A stretch of DNA of 64,000 bases from positions 192,001 to 256,000 of the IMG/VR virus record IMGVR_UViG_3300028591_000073; one strand, written 5' to 3'. Under the pieces are notes generated by a model. It worked only from the letters and a program-made list of their open reading frames with translations. It ran no database searches and was not told where the DNA came from. The stretch is from a virus. Lineage: Duplodnaviria > Caudoviricetes. The position numbers were made by a program, and so were the translations under genes. Positions 3,192 through 57,582 of the stretch are shown one piece after another (positions within the stretch are counted from its first letter, which is position 1; each line of letters starts with the position of its first letter).

Positions 3192-4058
3192 ATGAAAATT
3201 ATCAGTGATATGAAAGTGAAAGACTTTCCGTCAGGAGTGTCTTTTAAGGCATACTATCAAGAACCAAGACTGACACATCAGGGTGGTTTGTTATTCGATG
3301 AACCATATACCGGCTCATTGGAACGTAATTCGGTTCCGAAACTGGATGCATCATATGGAACTTGGTTTCCAGTAAGGACAAAAGAGACCTATCATTATCG
3401 TGCGGATGATGTGATGGAATGTGACATCACCATCACGTACCATGAAATTGATGATGACTTGGAAAACCAGCATAAATTGGATGATGATGCAGAAATAGTG
3501 ATTGATAAAATCGATGTCTCGATGATGAGACATGGTATAAAAATCACAAATCATTATTATGGGACGCATGATGATAATGAAGTGTTTAGTCGCCATAGTA
3601 GGATAATCGATTGGTTCTCTTCGAAGGTTAAACTTCAATATTTTCCTTTGATCAGTGTAATTGGTAAATGTTATCATATACTGTGTGGTGAGTTCACAGA
3701 ACTTGTATACACTGAACCAGCATTGAATCAATTGTGTGACTGCGAAATGATTATTAGAGGTATTGCATCATCGGAATCAACACCTTGGTTGGCAGAGACA
3801 CTTCTCAGTCGTTATTGTGAACTAACTGAGAAAAGAAACGATATATCACAAGTGGCATTCTCCCAGACGACATTGTTCATGCTTATATATGAACTCGTGA
3901 ATCAAAACCGGGGAGAGGTATTACGTATAATACCATTGACTCTGAGAACACATCTGATTGCAAGGTTTAATGAAGCTGGGAAACATGCAATTGTCGCAGC
4001 GTTAAACCATTACCACAAAGGGGATTACAGAAATCCCGGAAAGGATTTGGTATTATGA
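3192..4058 (+). CDS. paralogous family protein 2
   Basis: RBS AAGGAGG; C-terminus LRIIPLTLRT...AGKHAIVAALNHYHKGDY. Confidence 0.8.
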   Translation: MKIISDMKVKDFPSGVSFKAYYQEPRLTHQGGLLFDEPYTGSLERNSVPKLDASYGTWFPVRTKETYHYRADDVMECDITITYHEIDDDLENQHKLDDDAEIVIDKIDVSMMRHGIKITNHYYGTHDDNEVFSRHSRIIDWFSSKVKLQYFPLISVIGKCYHILCGEFTELVYTEPALNQLCDCEMIIRGIASSESTPWLAETLLSRYCELTEKRNDISQVAFSQTTLFMLIYELVNQNRGEVLRIIPLTLRTHLIARFNEAGKHAIVAALNHYHKGDYRNPGKDLVL

Positions 4059-22092: not shown

Positions 22093-22905
22093 ATGAAAGT
22101 TAGAACTGGAAATTTCGAATTTGTGACAAACATTAATGACGACATCCGTTATGACACATTGAACAGGTTGTGCAATATCTCCAATGAGAATGTGGAGCTT
22201 GTGTACGGCATCGATTACGAAAAGCATGCCGCACACCATTACAACAAGCTCAGCCATGTTCATAATGGTATGAAATATTGGGTAGACGCTATCATGCCAG
22301 AGCATGCGGATGTCAAAACCGGGTTTGCCATTGATGTTCTTCATAAGGGAAATGATACATGGACAAAATCAAGTATTTCAATTTTCCCGATTGAAGATGG
22401 TGTGAAAAGAGAGAAACCAGTTGTTCAATTTGAGCAAACAAAGGGGTTCGAAAATCTTTTCCATGCAAGAAATGGCATGGTGCTCTCAACATGGGTACAT
22501 GAAACAATCAGATGCCCTGTGGTCCAGTACATTGTTGGTGAGATCAGTTTCTCTGATATCGTTGAGAAGTACATGCTGTACTCAAACATCCCGTGGGATG
22601 GCATGACCACTCTGTTCTCGATGATTACAGAAGAACAGAGAAGACAACTCATCAACGAGCATACGGATACAGATAACAAATGGCATGTGACAGATGTCAT
22701 CTATCAAATTGAACTCCTCGCAAATGCAGAGTTAATGAACAACATGCATGACTATGACGAGTTCAAAAAGAAGTTTAAAAGAGAAGATATCCTTTCCGCA
22801 ATCAGAGATTGCAATCGGAAGGGAAATCACGAACTTCAAATCTTCCTCAATCACTGTGTCCCGCAGGAAACTGAGGAAGATCGGAGAAAGAGATGGGAGC
22901 TGTAA
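22093..22905 (+). CDS. distant member of the C-terminal WEL family
   Basis: RBS AAGGAGG; ends NRKGNHELQIFLNHC...RWEL. Confidence 0.75.
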   Translation: MKVRTGNFEFVTNINDDIRYDTLNRLCNISNENVELVYGIDYEKHAAHHYNKLSHVHNGMKYWVDAIMPEHADVKTGFAIDVLHKGNDTWTKSSISIFPIEDGVKREKPVVQFEQTKGFENLFHARNGMVLSTWVHETIRCPVVQYIVGEISFSDIVEKYMLYSNIPWDGMTTLFSMITEEQRRQLINEHTDTDNKWHVTDVIYQIELLANAELMNNMHDYDEFKKKFKREDILSAIRDCNRKGNHELQIFLNHCVPQETEEDRRKRWEL

Positions 22906-22978
22906 TATGCTCCTGTCTCTATCCCTTCGGGGAATACATGATATCCATCAATATTTTATTTTTCTATTATTTTAATTT

Positions 22979-23004
22979 TTGAAATATATATAATTAATAT
23001 GATA
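22979..23004 (+). promoter_or_regulatory. putative early promoter motif, copy 5
   Basis: TTGAAATATATATAATTAATATGATA preceded by TTCTATTATT. Confidence 0.7.
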
Positions 23005-23217
23005 TCAATGAATATCAAATTCATTTGTTAGTAGATCTAATGCGAAGGGATCGAAAGCAATTGAGGATGATGGAGATATCGGATGAAGCTTACATCCTAA
23101 AAGAAAGCGATCCTTCTCATACCAGCCGAGAAGTAAAATAACGCTGGAGTCACTGGCAACAATACAAAGTGGGACGTCCGAGGATTAGTGAACCTCGCCC
23201 ACAAAGGAGAAATTCTT

Positions 23218-23469
23218 ATGACATTATTCACACTGATTGACAGATTATCCGATAATGACATCTTCGCAATGCCTTTCGATAGCTACACAATCACCCTAGT
23301 CAAGTACAATCACAAAGAAACTGCCGATTACCTCCCAGGCATGGTCTCCATAGGTCAGGTGGAGTACGACCATATCGATGATGCGGTAACCAATCCGCAC
23401 ATCGATATGGACAACGATACCCTCACAGACGCCGACAAGGCTTTGTTGAAGGAGGTGTTCAATCTCTGA
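23218..23469 (+). CDS. small acidic hypothetical protein
   Basis: RBS AAAGGAG before ATG 23218. Confidence 0.65.
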   Translation: MTLFTLIDRLSDNDIFAMPFDSYTITLVKYNHKETADYLPGMVSIGQVEYDHIDDAVTNPHIDMDNDTLTDADKALLKEVFNL

Positions 23470-23474
23470 TCAAT

Positions 23475-23501
23475 CAACCTGAGTAGGTTGTAAAACTACT
23501 C
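23475..23501 (+). ncRNA. H-type pseudoknot motif, single copy
   Basis: CAAC-CT-GAGTA-G-GTTG-TAAAAC-TACTC. Confidence 0.65.
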
Positions 23502-23632
23502 AAAGAAAGGATCACTGTGTAGGTGAACCCTCAGCAATAGTTGAGGCCGCCGATAGCTGATCCGACATCCATACTCGGACTGTCGTGAGACAGCCCTTCC
23601 CGTGTAAATCATCTTAGAAAGGAGGTGATTAC

Positions 23633-23851
23633 ATGAAAAAGAATTTCGTTCTTGGTTCCAGTCTTGATTCAGTTGAAGACGATGTGCTCGGGTTCGCCCG
23701 CAGACACAATCTGACAATTGAAGACAGACGTGAATATGACGAAGAGGGCAGACAGGAATTTGAATGTGACAGATTCATCCCGTCATACCTCAACGTCAAA
23801 TTCATGGATAGAAAGGGAGTCAAAGTCAACGTAACATTTGTTTACGAATGA
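23633..23851 (+). CDS. small hypothetical protein
   Basis: RBS GAAAGGAGGTG; 72 aa. Confidence 0.7.
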   Translation: MKKNFVLGSSLDSVEDDVLGFARRHNLTIEDRREYDEEGRQEFECDRFIPSYLNVKFMDRKGVKVNVTFVYE

Positions 23852-23917
23852 TCTAACTCCAATCTATCTTGGATAAGGACGCCCCGTACGTGGGGGAAGG
23901 ATAATAAATACGCGTAT

Positions 23918-24081
23918 ACAGCCTAGGCATGCTGTTATAAAAACCGCCCACCAAATTGAGGTCCTCGGCATGACCGTCATTAGAAAAGAACTGCCGGTGT
24001 CCTGAGTATGACACCTAGCCAAAAAAGAACTGCTCACAATCCAGGTCCTGAATATGACCTGGATAACAAAAAGAACTATTC
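23918..24081 (+). ncRNA. tandem array of four H-type pseudoknot units
   Basis: Units at 23918, 23960, 23996 and 24039, each S1-CT-S2-N-S1'-A-rich-AAC-S2', with compensatory changes (CGGCA/TGCCG, GAGTA/TGCTC, GAATA/TATTC). Confidence 0.75.
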
Positions 24082-24082
24082 A

Positions 24083-24112
24083 AAAGGAGATCCAAGATCT
24101 CTTTTTTCTTTT
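24083..24112 (+). terminator. intrinsic terminator closing the pseudoknot array
   Basis: AAAGGAGATC-CAA-GATCTCTTT followed by a long T-run. Confidence 0.7.
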
Positions 24113-24280
24113 AACTTTTTTCTTTTTTGGCATGTATATACTTAATTTGACCGAAGGTCAAATTGTAATAATAACATTAATAGAGAATTCATAATATTTT
24201 ATATTTATGGATATATAAAGTTATTATGTACAGACACCTTAGGTCTTGTATAAAATGTCATATGAAAGGAGAAATGCAAT

Positions 24281-25108
24281 ATGCCTATTGCGAGTATCAT
24301 CTCGGGATTAACAGCGCTTGCGGGAAGTGGTATGGCCGTAGCAAAGATGATTCGAGATGATAAACAATCACGATATCCACCGGAATATCTCATGTACAAA
24401 GACATGATGAAAGATGCTCGGAAATATGGATATCCACCGATGGGAATGATGATACAACAACCATTCATTGCTCCCATGGCACAACCACCACAACCAATTA
24501 TGGTGCAACCAGATTTGGTGAATCAGATTCTTCAGGAATATCAGAAACAACAGTTGTCACAAATGATTGCGAATATGGTCACACAAGCCATTCAGAAACG
24601 TTTGAGTCAGCCGCAACAAATGTATGTTCCCAGAAGACCAGATTATGGTTATCAACCTCAACCTGTCCAACCCATCTCGTATGGATATCAACCTCGGGTT
24701 CCACCACCATTACCAAATCTTCAATATTATGCGGAACCGATGTGGGAGACGCCTGCAGATGGAGTCGCTGTCCAAACTCCACCTCCAGCACCATCCCCAT
24801 ATCAACTTGCCTTGGTTCCAAAACCAATTCCCATGCCACAACCACAGCCTCAACCGTATGTCGCTCCGATACCACCACCGCCTCCGAGTGTGAAGTTCTG
24901 CCAGCCTGAACAATTTGTACAACAGCCACAGCCACAGACACCACTTGTGATGCCTGGTAGCGGAAATATGTATCAATCCCAATTATCATGGGAATCGTCG
25001 AATGCTTTTAATGTCGACCAGAATGGTTTGCAGTCATTTATCTCACATTGTGACAATCGACCAAAGGTTCCTGATAATTATGTCGGGAACACATTAGACG
25101 TGTGGTGA
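24281..25108 (+). CDS. Pro/Gln-rich disordered protein with hydrophobic N-terminal segment
   Basis: RBS AAGGAG; PQPQ/PPPP tracts; N-terminal IASIISGLTALAGSGMAVA. Confidence 0.75.
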   Translation: MPIASIISGLTALAGSGMAVAKMIRDDKQSRYPPEYLMYKDMMKDARKYGYPPMGMMIQQPFIAPMAQPPQPIMVQPDLVNQILQEYQKQQLSQMIANMVTQAIQKRLSQPQQMYVPRRPDYGYQPQPVQPISYGYQPRVPPPLPNLQYYAEPMWETPADGVAVQTPPPAPSPYQLALVPKPIPMPQPQPQPYVAPIPPPPPSVKFCQPEQFVQQPQPQTPLVMPGSGNMYQSQLSWESSNAFNVDQNGLQSFISHCDNRPKVPDNYVGNTLDVW

Positions 25109-53834: not shown

Positions 53835-55585
53835 TGGCTAAGGATAACATGATTGTTGAAAAGACAGCAACTGGAGCAATTATCCATCAACCCACTCTGG
53901 AAGTGAAACGTAAAGCATTACAATACTTCTCCCTTCCAGATCCACAACGTGAATATTTCATTTATTCTGGATCAGACATCAATCGTCGACCAATCTTTGG
54001 AAATGAACATGATGTATTATATATTTCATCTGGATTCTTAAAAATCAAAGATCCGGTAATTGATAAATTAAGATTACAAGCGACCAGAGTGGCATCACGT
54101 GATGGTGCTCCTATTCAAATTACAATGAATCGAAAACCTCGTTCTCAATTACAAGTTGACTGTATCCAAATGATGGTAGAAACCGGATATTCCAAAATGA
54201 CATGTGAAGTGAAGCCCGGTGTTGGCTTTCTGGCACCCGTATCGAGTAATCGGTATGTTAAATTACCCTTTGAATTGCTGGGACGCTCTAATGCTCATTG
54301 TACTACAACATGATTCCGAACAGGAATGAGTGTGAATGTGACGAAAGTAAAAAGAAACAATGAGATGGTGTATGGTTAAATCCTAAACATTATTAAGAAT
54401 GAGCAATCAGCAGCGAAGCTCCGAATAGGAGAACGTTCAACGACTATCTCGAAAGAGAGTAGGGAAACCGAAGCGGAGGGCATCCTATGTGAGGATGATG
54501 ATATAGTCTGAAGCGGAAAGACATTCATGGCATTATCCGTTATCAGTCAGCTTGGAAAGAAACCATTGATTATTGCTCCCACGGCATTATTGAAGAATCA
54601 ATGGATTGAGAATTTTACAGATTTGGGTGTTGATGTAAATGATATTGCAACACGTATTTATGATGGACCGAACAAGAAAGTATGTGTTGTCACCATATCA
54701 GCAATTGAAAATGAATTACGTAAAGATTGGCAAGGTCTCATGAATGTATTGAAACAAGCGAACTATGGTATTCGTATTACAGACGAAGCACATCTACATT
54801 TGAAGGGTGTGTTGAAATTTGATGCTATTGCCAATATCAAACGTAATTATTATCTGTCCGCAACACTTGGTAGATCAGATGAACAAGAGGATGATGTTCT
54901 CAATCGAGCATTATTAGATGCAGATCGATTCGTCGGTGATAAACGATATGAGGAATATCAAGATGAATACATCAATGTGTATCTTCAAGATATTTACTAC
55001 AATGCTTCTCGTGAAATATGTGAGGAACATTTTCGATATGGGAAAAAGGGACTAATCAGTGCAACATATTATCGTATGTTAATGGATTATCAACATGGCA
55101 TTCCCTTTTATCGGAATGCATGTCATATGGTGAAAGTTGCAGAGAAATTGAAAGTACAGGGTAAAGTATTATTGTTATTACCATTACTCGATGCAATTGA
55201 TCGTATTAAAGAAGAAATGATGAAAGATCCATACTTCCGTCAATTTAAGATTGCATCTGTCGATGGTAGTATGAAATTATCCGAAAGACAACAAGCGTTT
55301 GATCAAGATATCATCTTAGCAACAACAATGAGTTGTGGCACGGGTGTGGATATTTCTAACTTAGGAGCGGTTGTTAACTTTGATCAAAAGTCTTCTTTGA
55401 TTATCTTAGAGCAGATAGTTGGTCGTTTGCGTAATCGTGGATTCCAAACATTCTATATTGATATTTGTGATCATGTAAAATATGCAAGGGCATTTGAAAA
55501 CTGGGGAATGAAGCGTCGACAATACATGCCTTACTTTCCTGGCACCTCTCCGAAGATGCACATGCTACCAAAGATTATGTGTTAA
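53834..55585 (+). CDS. SF2 (UvsW-like) DEAH helicase; exons 53834-54222 and 54514-55585 (486 aa spliced)
   Basis: Splicing restores Walker A KPGVGKT; IIAPT, DEAH, LSAT, GTGVDI and QIVGRLR motifs. Confidence 0.85.
54223..54513 (+). ncRNA. group I self-splicing intron (IA-like, ORF-less, 291 nt)
   Basis: P AATTGCTGGGA, Q AATCAGCAG, R GTTCAACGACTA, S GATATAGTC; P1 GGTGT/GCACC with U-G at the 5' splice site; P10 CTTTCTG/CGGAAAG; terminal G54513. Confidence 0.9.
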
Positions 55586-56913: not shown

Positions 56914-56944
56914 ACAGCCTGAGCATGCTGTATAAAAACTGCTC
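56914..56944 (+). ncRNA. H-type pseudoknot motif, single copy
   Basis: ACAGC-CT-GAGCA-T-GCTGT-ATAAAAAC-TGCTC. Confidence 0.7.
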
Positions 56945-57028
56945 ATTTCTTTTATAAAAAATCTGACATATCATGTCATAAGAACCCAATAGGTCGATAT
57001 GTTCAGATTCTAAAAAGGAGGTAATCTT

Positions 57029-57562
57029 ATGACACATGAACAATATGAATTTATTCAAGGACTTCAACAGGATATTCTGAAACGGGTTGCTTATGCAAAC
57101 CCGGCATGCGTCCTCAGTCAGTCTGAACTTGCCATTCTGTATCACGGCGGCGAGTTCGATGAAATTCATCAAGCCGAAATCGGATTTTCCAATGATGATG
57201 AAACTGGAATAAAAACCATTATCATCAACAGATATGTGAATGACAAACTGGTTTTTCACCAGTTCATTGTCATTGAGAATCCAAATCCAGATGAGGAAAC
57301 ACCATATGGCGTCACAACAGTGAACACCGATTTCAACGGTGATGCTGACTGTGATATCATAGCTGTTCTGTACAGTCACATCCCAGGTATGTCCTGGCGA
57401 AGAGTGGAAGACAGAACTGTCACCTTGTGCGACAAACTGGACAATGTTATTCGTCAGGCGCAACAGCCCAGCTTCGAGGAGTTTATCCACAGAATCATTG
57501 ATGAGAGACTCGCGGAAGGTCCTGGGAATTGGGACGATGATGGCGAAGACAAGGATGCATAA
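57029..57562 (+). CDS. acidic hypothetical protein
   Basis: RBS AAGGAGG; 177 aa. Confidence 0.75.
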   Translation: MTHEQYEFIQGLQQDILKRVAYANPACVLSQSELAILYHGGEFDEIHQAEIGFSNDDETGIKTIIINRYVNDKLVFHQFIVIENPNPDEETPYGVTTVNTDFNGDADCDIIAVLYSHIPGMSWRRVEDRTVTLCDKLDNVIRQAQQPSFEEFIHRIIDERLAEGPGNWDDDGEDKDA

Positions 57563-57582
57563 TCTAATTCTGAGTCATCAAT

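What the first reader, a model, noticed from the sequence alone, without database searches (positions are those of the whole stretch)
23918..24112. Tandem array of covarying RNA pseudoknots with terminator: candidate phage RNA decoy or orphan type III-antitoxin-like system
Seen: four consecutive non-identical units of about 30-43 nt share the grammar S1(ending C)-CT-S2(5 nt)-N-(G)S1'-A-rich loop-AAC-S2'. The units are ACAGC|CT|AGGCA|T|GCTGT..AAC|CGCCC (weak S2), GGTC|CT|CGGCA|T|GACC..AAC|TGCCG, GGTGTC|CT|GAGTA|T|GACACC..AAC|TGCTC and ATCCAGGTC|CT|GAATA|T|GACCTGGAT..AAC|TATTC. Both stems change sequence but keep pairing, while CT and AAC are invariant. The array is non-coding, lies at the end of an early-promoter island and is followed by a terminator. 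Known: type III toxin-antitoxin antitoxins (ToxI, AntiQ, CptI, TenpI) are tandem H-type pseudoknot arrays ending at a terminator, and phage phiTE escapes ToxIN with pseudo-ToxI repeats. Inference: no toxin gene is adjacent, so this may be an early-expressed panel of diversified RNA decoys against a host defence RNase, or a new structured-RNA class.
Basis: partly seen in the sequence, partly recalled or inferred. Interest (0 to 1): 0.9.

Follow-up and report, generated by a model that had tools for sequence, protein, structure and literature searches.

The report
Tandem coremin-like pseudoknots ending phage operon
Four small RNA knots sit in a row at the end of a rumen jumbo-phage operon; they belong to a phage-wide element resembling the plant-virus 'coremin' RNA that stalls RNA-degrading enzymes, so they most likely leave a stable non-coding RNA, and they match bacterial antitoxin RNAs only in overall shape.

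Summary
The four pseudoknots and terminator are real. They are not unique: the 295-kb rumen jumbo phage has 13 copies (none in shuffles), and 445 distinct copies were recovered from other phages and some RNA viruses; 44% start 4-12 nt after a stop codon. Both stems covary in scans that left them free. The core (8-nt loop C-N5-A-N, then AAC-U) closely resembles the Xrn1-blocking coremin motif but fails its loop-G rule. Special here: units 2-4 have lengthened stems and 16-17-nt linkers (family mode 6), seen only in this array and one orthologue. That geometry resembles TenpI antitoxins (Rfam '6A' proves to be TenpI), but the units score at background against TenpI/CptI profiles and lack the toxin-binding linkers. 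Best reading (~0.45): tandem 5'-to-3' nuclease roadblocks leaving stable sfRNA-like RNAs; antitoxin decoy ~0.15. Function and expression are untested. The scan already noted this family on other DNA; the long-linker array was not among the notes I saw.

The parts
23918..23950 (+). Unit 1: coremin-like H-type pseudoknot, short-linker type; S2 has one A-C mismatch here, perfect in the orthologue L410
   Evidence: 23.5 bits; 36.3 in L410
23960..23997 (+). Unit 2: long-linker type (16 nt from the 4-bp S1 core to S2')
   Evidence: 29.5 bits
23996..24036 (+). Unit 3: long-linker type, 6-bp S1; overlaps unit 2 by 2 nt, no linker between them
   Evidence: 35.3 bits
24039..24082 (+). Unit 4: long-linker type, up to 9-bp S1; best but sub-threshold match to Rfam 6A/TenpI
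   Evidence: 19.2 bits, cut-off 41.2; 28.2 bits
24082..24129 (+). Intrinsic-terminator-like hairpin and U-run; stem kept, loop changed in L410
23882..23917 (+). Probable fifth, more divergent pseudoknot (7-nt loop, long A-rich linker); second copy near genome 176.06 kb with compensatory changes, directly before a terminator
   Evidence: two copies only
23633..23851 (+). 72-aa ORF, last gene of the island; its cassette is absent in the orthologue L410
   Evidence: (no PHROG or Pfam hit)
23475..23502 (+). Canonical short-linker family copy 5 nt after the stop of ORF 23188-23469
   Evidence: 34.9 bits
23507..23561 (+). Unrelated structured element X; lies directly before the array in L410
   Evidence: (z -4.6)
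22962..23026 (+). Repeated promoter-like motif heading the island; presumed promoter of the transcript that carries the array
   Evidence: family D1; 16 matches genome-wide
56914..56945 (+). Family copy, same subtype as unit 1, 7 nt after a stop codon
57583..57651 (+). Pair of family copies between two genes; the second ends about 24 nt before a start codon

Best explanation
The array is a tandem, lineage-specific elaboration of a compact H-type pseudoknot that many phages place at gene boundaries and that works like the coremin (xrRNA-C) element: a roadblock to 5'-to-3' decay. The early-type operon is read from the promoter motif near 22990 through two small genes, the array and the terminator (inferred). 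Host 5'-to-3' exonuclease (RNase J in a presumed Bacillota host, inferred) degrades the message from upstream and stalls at each knot; the next knot or the terminator supplies the downstream hairpin that coremin needs. No gene lies between the array and the terminator, so the protected product is the array itself: nested stable RNAs of about 190, 150, 115 and 70 nt, like the sfRNAs left by tandem xrRNAs in flaviviruses. Their most likely job is to occupy the nuclease or another host RNA-binding factor. Shown: fold, covariation, family membership, placement, lengthened subtype. Inferred: transcription of the array, nuclease stalling, any trans role.
For: With S1 left free, its first three pairs form in 79 of 79. 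(2) Loop first Y, penultimate A, last D and the spacer C-U are positions that coremin mutagenesis found essential, and natural loops of 7-8 nt resist Xrn1 (PMC10520033); a Watson-Crick pseudoknot form is described (PMC10321173). (3) The same motif stands after stop codons in small contigs, in tandem in some; L014 encodes an RdRP and has tandem copies in its 3' region, the position of viral xrRNAs. (4) Of 445 copies, 5 lie in long ORFs, 44% start 4-12 nt after a stop (2.6% for random intergenic sites), 34 lie within 15 nt before a tRNA and 2 after one. In this genome two sites head a transcript leader with no gene just upstream, and four copies end 22-29 nt before a start codon, which fits 5' protection. 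(5) Other xrRNA classes block bacterial RNase J1 and occur in tandem (PMC8374639). (6) The array is kept, with mostly structure-neutral changes, in a related phage whose upstream genes differ.
Against: No nuclease assay exists for this 8-nt-loop form, and the papers read give none for coremin with RNase J. Loop position 2 is U, whereas coremin needs G. Units 2-4 have linkers far longer than coremin's 8-10-nt spacer. Frameshift pseudoknots of similar size do not stall Xrn1, so the fold alone is not enough. The strong post-stop placement fits a ribosome roadblock or a 3' protector equally well. The host is not identified. No RNA evidence covers the array itself.
Confidence: 0.45

Rival explanations
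1. Cis boundary elements of a modular gene-cassette system. The knots stop post-termination ribosomes or shield 3' ends after processing, and the array is an accumulation of such boundaries left as genes were gained and lost in the variable island, with no function in trans.
For: The sharp 5-6-nt peak after stop codons, with almost nothing closer, is where a terminating ribosome's entry channel lies (own knowledge). Coremin stalls scanning ribosomes. The island is modular: a whole gene cassette with its own 3' knot sits between element X and unit 1 in the window but not in L410, and a relative 69% identical in a neighbouring core protein lacks the island. Unit 1 is the same subtype as the post-stop copy at 56914.
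Against: Units 2-4 share a derived long linker not seen in any boundary copy, so they arose by duplication of one unit and then diverged while keeping both stems, which points to selection on the array. The array starts 66 nt after the last stop and has no gene downstream. A terminator already protects the 3' end.
Confidence: 0.25
2. Decoy for a host type III toxin. The phage stretched its own pseudoknot to the shape of a TenpI antitoxin, and the array titrates TenpN as pseudo-ToxI does ToxN in phage phiTE.
For: Rfam 6A is a TenpI: true hits are tandem repeats before a terminator and an NF047358 TenpN gene. Unit 4 is the best 6A hit in 295 kb (19.2 bits, E 0.083). The core-to-S2' distance is 16-17 nt in units 2-4, 15-19 in TenpI-a, but 6 in 387 of 446 family copies. 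The linkers end in the same A-rich motif as many TenpI repeats. TenpI repeats can be non-identical (PMC13682666, PMC12283969). TenpN occurs in 17 of 401 sampled genomes of one clostridial family and 11 of 399 of its class.
Against: Against three TenpI profiles the units total 3-15 bits, within the genome background (top 15-22), while held-out real repeats score 26-66; against CptI 0-2 bits versus a median near 29. No TenpI repeat reaches 10 bits on the coremin-like profile, whereas the units reach 23-35. The GA(A/U)GA linker seen in nearly all TenpI repeats examined is absent and units 2 and 3 overlap, yet TenpN binds mainly the single-stranded ends. Pseudo-ToxI keeps most ToxI positions and the sequence around the cleavage site (PMC3475682). 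A longer A-rich linker is also what a longer S1 requires.
Confidence: 0.15
3. Binding sites for a phage or host protein or a small ligand: the single copies are regulatory leaders and the array is a sponge that tunes them.
For: Invariant unpaired bases (L1 C, AAC); four identical-core copies lie 22-29 nt before start codons; tandem copies would titrate a factor.
Against: The motif spans DNA phages and RNA viruses with no shared downstream gene; the invariant bases are those expected for pseudoknot tertiary contacts; there is no sign of an expression platform.
Confidence: 0.1

Closest known systems
Coremin motif (xrRNA-C) of beny-, cucumo- and other RNA viruses and its Watson-Crick form xrRNA-WCC (Dilweg et al.; PMC10520033, PMC10321173)
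   Same: Short hairpin closed by C-G; loop starting with Y and ending A-D; A-rich spacer followed by C-U; loop-spacer pseudoknot; a downstream hairpin; tandem repeats; placement after stop codons and between genes.
   Different: 8-nt loop with U rather than the required G at position 2; a full 5-6-bp Watson-Crick S2; linkers of 16-17 nt in units 2-4; DNA phage of bacteria, where the papers read report none; nuclease resistance untested.
TenpI antitoxin of TenpIN type III systems, which is Rfam 6A RNA, RF02925 (PMC12283969, PMC13682666)
   Same: H-type pseudoknot with long S1 and a long A-rich linker of like length; non-identical tandem units; terminator at the end.
   Different: No TenpN gene; different loop grammar and an extra A-U pair after AAC; no conserved single-stranded cleavage linker; periods of 41, 38 and 46 nt against 45-52; scores at background.
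CptI and ToxI antitoxins; phiTE pseudo-ToxI (PMC3475682)
   Same: Tandem pseudoknots before a terminator; in phiTE, a phage array without toxin.
   Different: No sequence match (CptI profile 0-2 bits; no ToxI hit in Rfam at E 10); pseudo-ToxI is a near copy of its target and expands as near-identical repeats.
Tandem xrRNAs and sfRNAs of flaviviruses (PMC8374639)
   Same: Several roadblocks in series in a 3' non-coding region, able to leave nested stable RNAs.
   Different: Different fold (three-way-junction ring, own knowledge); analogy of layout only.

Membership tests
Coremin / xrRNA-C | Short hairpin whose loop begins with Y and ends with A-D | tested here: met
   All four loops are C-N5-A-U; unit 3 of the orthologue ends in C
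Coremin / xrRNA-C | G at loop position 2 | tested here: not met
   U in all four units; U in 256 of 280 family members, G in 1; requirement
Coremin / xrRNA-C | A-rich spacer ending in C-U that pairs back to the loop (pseudoknot) | tested here: met
   AAC-U in units 2-4 (AAC-C in unit 1); S2 covariation
Coremin / xrRNA-C | Spacer of 8-10 nt | tested here: not met
   Units 2-4 have 16-17 nt from the 4-bp S1 core to S2'
Coremin / xrRNA-C | Second hairpin directly downstream | tested here: inconclusive
   The next unit or the terminator follows within 0-9 nt and could serve; many single copies have no obvious hairpin
Coremin / xrRNA-C | Stalls a 5'-to-3' exoribonuclease | not testable with these tools
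   Needs an in vitro degradation assay
TenpI (Rfam 6A) type III antitoxin | Cognate toxin gene after the terminator | tested here: not met
   No TenpN or ToxN family match in the genome at E 1; the next gene is a conserved Pro-rich ORF
TenpI (Rfam 6A) type III antitoxin | H-type pseudoknot with long S1 and long A-rich linker, in tandem before a terminator | tested here: met
   Units 2-4
TenpI (Rfam 6A) type III antitoxin | Single-stranded 5' and 3' arms with the conserved linker that binds and is cut by the toxin | tested here: not met
   No GA(A/U)GA in the array; units 2 and 3 overlap; tail scores mostly negative
TenpI (Rfam 6A) type III antitoxin | Score at family level | tested here: not met
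   RF02925 19.2 bits against cut-off 41.2 and 59-68 for true hits; own profiles 3-15 against 26-66
TenpI (Rfam 6A) type III antitoxin | Neutralises TenpN | not testable with these tools
   Needs a rescue or binding assay
CptI type III antitoxin | Sequence and structure profile of clostridial CptI repeats | tested here: not met
   0-2 bits against a held-out median near 29; a CptN search of the phage's own genome was not run
ToxI / pseudo-ToxI | Match to the ToxI model; near-identical repeats | tested here: not met
   No ToxI hit at E 10 in 22900-24300; units differ in length and sequence

The most novel reading that the evidence does not exclude
A DNA phage makes sfRNA-like stable RNAs from tandem coremin-type roadblocks and has reshaped three of them to the geometry of the host's TenpI antitoxin, so that one RNA both survives RNase J and titrates a defence ribonuclease. 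This would also tie viral xrRNA-C and type III antitoxins into one structural lineage.
Probability: 0.12. Interest if true: 0.88.

Novelty: new variant of a known kind. Interest (0 to 1): 0.57.

Why it matters
Exoribonuclease-resistant RNAs are described from eukaryotic RNA viruses; the papers I could search report none in phages. A family with hundreds of natural covarying copies gives a Watson-Crick model for the coremin fold, which those papers call unsolved, and a directly testable 29-nt RNA stabiliser for bacteria. This array is the case where the element protects no gene, so it is the best place to ask whether phages make sfRNA-like RNAs and what they do. The side result that Rfam 6A is TenpI gives a function to an orphan family.

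Tried and rejected
Rfam at gathering level: only a group I intron in the window; at E 10 nothing credible except the weak 6A hit. Supplement of the paper describing 6A not held; no paper found naming 6A RNA. Searches for the long-linker subtype elsewhere gave chance matches only: 2 in viral contigs, 3 of 117 and 4 of 70 with a weak S1, and one true hit, the orthologue L410, among 61 metagenome stretches. Four other fetched viral records, partial and of varying kinship, lack the array. The BLAST hit to a Cutibacterium phage has no S1 and is chance. RNA reads: summed depth of 174 and 92 over 23999-24240 in a sheep-gut RNA run is not used as evidence; the three exact-match contigs lie elsewhere, the deep record is under 95% alike and unlisted, and the 2:1 split fits the T-rich terminator tail. 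Absence of an exact RNA contig over the array proves nothing. The MAFFT alignment of TenpI subfamilies was out of register, so hand-anchored profiles were used; they rest on 6-21 repeats each and are rough. The covariance model R1, trained on short-linker copies, finds units 2-4 only as hairpins. Pair counts lean on descriptor-selected rows; the unbiased figures are those. preQ1, guanidine-III, SAM-II and pistol were considered from memory and dropped: no Rfam match and different grammar. The host could not be identified.

Full report
Setting. The window is bases 192001-256000 of a 294,548-base phage record. GroEL, DnaB, an SbcC-like subunit and PhuZ tubulin mark it as a jumbo phage; the runs that hold the stretch are sheep and bovine gut. 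Strong Shine-Dalgarno sites suggest a Bacillota host (inference). The array lies 66 nt after the stop of a 72-aa ORF, at the end of a small variable island headed by a promoter-like motif found 16 times in the genome. No sigma-70-like promoter lies directly before the array, so it is probably the 3' tail of the island's transcript.

Observation. The four units and the terminator are as described. The correct grammar is S1 ending in C, one unpaired C, a 5-6-bp S2 strand ending in an invariant A, one unpaired base, S1', an A-rich linker ending in AAC, then U (or C) and S2'. A descriptor found 11 copies in the genome against 1.2 in shuffles. A profile trained on 280 unrelated viral copies found 13, scoring 23.5-41.4 bits, and none at 17 bits in 8 shuffles. 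The nine copies outside the array are single or paired: three lie 5-20 nt after a stop, four end 22-29 nt before a start codon, and two sites head a leader with no gene just upstream.

The family. Two scans fixed S1 and the linker and left S2 free: the four inner S2 pairs formed in 67% and 59% of distinct combinations, against 27% and 19% after shuffling partners. One scan fixed S2 and left S1 free: the first three pairs formed in 79 of 79, four pairs in 81% against 11%. A 71-row alignment has changes on both sides in 9 of 10 pairs (rows were descriptor-selected). Among 445 distinct copies only 5 lie in long ORFs; 44% begin 4-12 nt after a stop codon (2.6% for random intergenic sites), peaking at 5-6 nt; 34 lie just before a tRNA and 2 just after. 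The motif also occurs after stops in small contigs, in tandem in L014, L025 and L036; L014 encodes an RdRP, and L028 has a near-threshold mitovirus polymerase match. In clostridial genomes it is rare (3 of 101 sampled).

Relation to coremin. The coremin 20-mer has the same flanks as one common form of the family, and scanning with those flanks and an 8-nt loop recovers the family. Mutagenesis defines the loop as Y-G-(N)n-A-D, needs the spacer C-U and a downstream hairpin, and finds natural 7- and 8-nt loops resistant; a Watson-Crick pseudoknot variant exists (PMC10520033, PMC10321173). The phage units meet the Y, A, D and C-U positions and form the pseudoknot, but have U at position 2. They are therefore not filed as coremin, though coremin is what they most plausibly work like. 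Other xrRNA classes stop bacterial RNase J1 (PMC8374639); for coremin I found no such test, and similar-sized frameshift pseudoknots do not stall Xrn1.

What is special about the array. Unit 1 is an ordinary copy. Units 2-4 have longer S1 stems and 16-17 nt between the S1 core and S2', ending in a shared A-rich octamer; the family mode is 6 (387 of 446) and the longest credible other case is 12 (most seeds favoured short linkers). One orthologous array was found (L410): the flanking core genes are nearly identical, the upstream genes differ, and the changes in the array fall in loops or outer pairs, or turn a pair into a wobble; unit 1 has a perfect S2 there. A bovine-gut contig covers 23958-24107 with five substitutions and one gap. 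A relative 69% identical in a neighbouring core protein lacks the island.

Test of the antitoxin-decoy idea. The best Rfam hit was 6A RNA on unit 4 (19.2 bits; cut-off 41.2; best in the genome, E 0.083). True 6A hits turned out to be tandem repeats before a terminator and a TenpN gene, and 30 TenpI and 21 CptI repeats were collected from clostridial loci. Units 2-4 share TenpI's linker length and A-rich end. But their totals against TenpI profiles are 3-15 bits, inside the genome background, while held-out repeats score 26-66; against CptI they score 0-2. Conversely no TenpI repeat reaches 10 bits on the family profile. The conserved linker between TenpI repeats is absent and units 2 and 3 overlap, whereas the cryo-EM structure shows TenpN binding mainly the single-stranded ends (PMC13682666). 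The phage has no TenpN or ToxN gene. The decoy reading is not excluded, since a competitive mimic need not be perfect (PMC3475682), but the likeness can be explained by what a longer S1 requires.

Mechanism. Shown: fold, family, placement, lengthened subtype. Inferred: transcription through the array, stalling of a host 5'-to-3' nuclease at each knot, and accumulation of nested RNAs ending at the terminator. Because nothing coding lies downstream, the array would protect only itself, like tandem flaviviral xrRNAs; a role in occupying the nuclease or another factor is a further inference. I put this at 0.45, cassette-boundary remnants or ribosome stops at 0.25, type III decoy at 0.15, protein or ligand sponge at 0.10. 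The RNA data do not decide: an exact 590-nt contig from a sheep-gut RNA run covers 23017-23606, upstream in the same island (DNA carry-over not excluded), and the deep signal over the array's end is uninterpretable.

Prior notes. I reached the coremin reading before the first look-up; five earlier notes report the same family on other genomes and several report 6A as TenpI. They are not independent evidence. The long-linker tandem array was not among the notes returned.

Verdict. Real; a new variant of a known kind (coremin-like), with an unusual tandem, gene-free arrangement; function untested. Interest 0.57.

Noticed in passing
window 23507-23561 (+); second copy near genome 86.9 kb (-); L410 about 3335-3395: Element X: a long stem with internal loops (z -4.6), two genomic copies with a compensatory change in the apical stem, no Rfam match. 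It follows a family pseudoknot in the window and directly precedes the array in L410.
   Followed up: partly
window 23882-23917; G000 176049-176087 (-): A second kind of pseudoknot (7-nt loop, long A-rich linker) at the 3' end of small-gene cassettes; two copies with compensatory S2 changes; the other copy is followed at once by a terminator.
   Followed up: partly
window 23577-23632 and L751 about 1820-1770 (-): Small-gene cassettes share a 5' module (hairpin with a GNRA-type loop, then Shine-Dalgarno), suggesting modular exchange of early genes. From memory, the hairpin resembles a piece of 23S rRNA helix 93 and part of element X resembles small-subunit rRNA helix 45; neither was checked.
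   Followed up: no
L374/L439-L446, L453, L464, L465: Rfam 6A RNA (RF02925) is the TenpI antitoxin of clostridial tenpIN loci; at least two further TenpI subfamilies (L448-L452, L458-L468) have a different loop grammar.
   Followed up: yes
L748 upstream of cptN: A CptI array of three non-identical pseudoknots that abut with almost no linker, showing that natural antitoxin arrays can lack long linkers.
   Followed up: no
L057, L072, L102, L111, L126, L133, L136, L138, L141, L150: Family copies placed a few bases before phage tRNA genes, often also just after a stop codon.
   Followed up: partly
window 54233-54530: Group I intron (RF00028, 70 bits) between two ORFs.
   Followed up: no
window 56956-56990 and 57562-57582: Further hairpins next to family copies, possibly degenerate units or downstream hairpins.
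   Followed up: no
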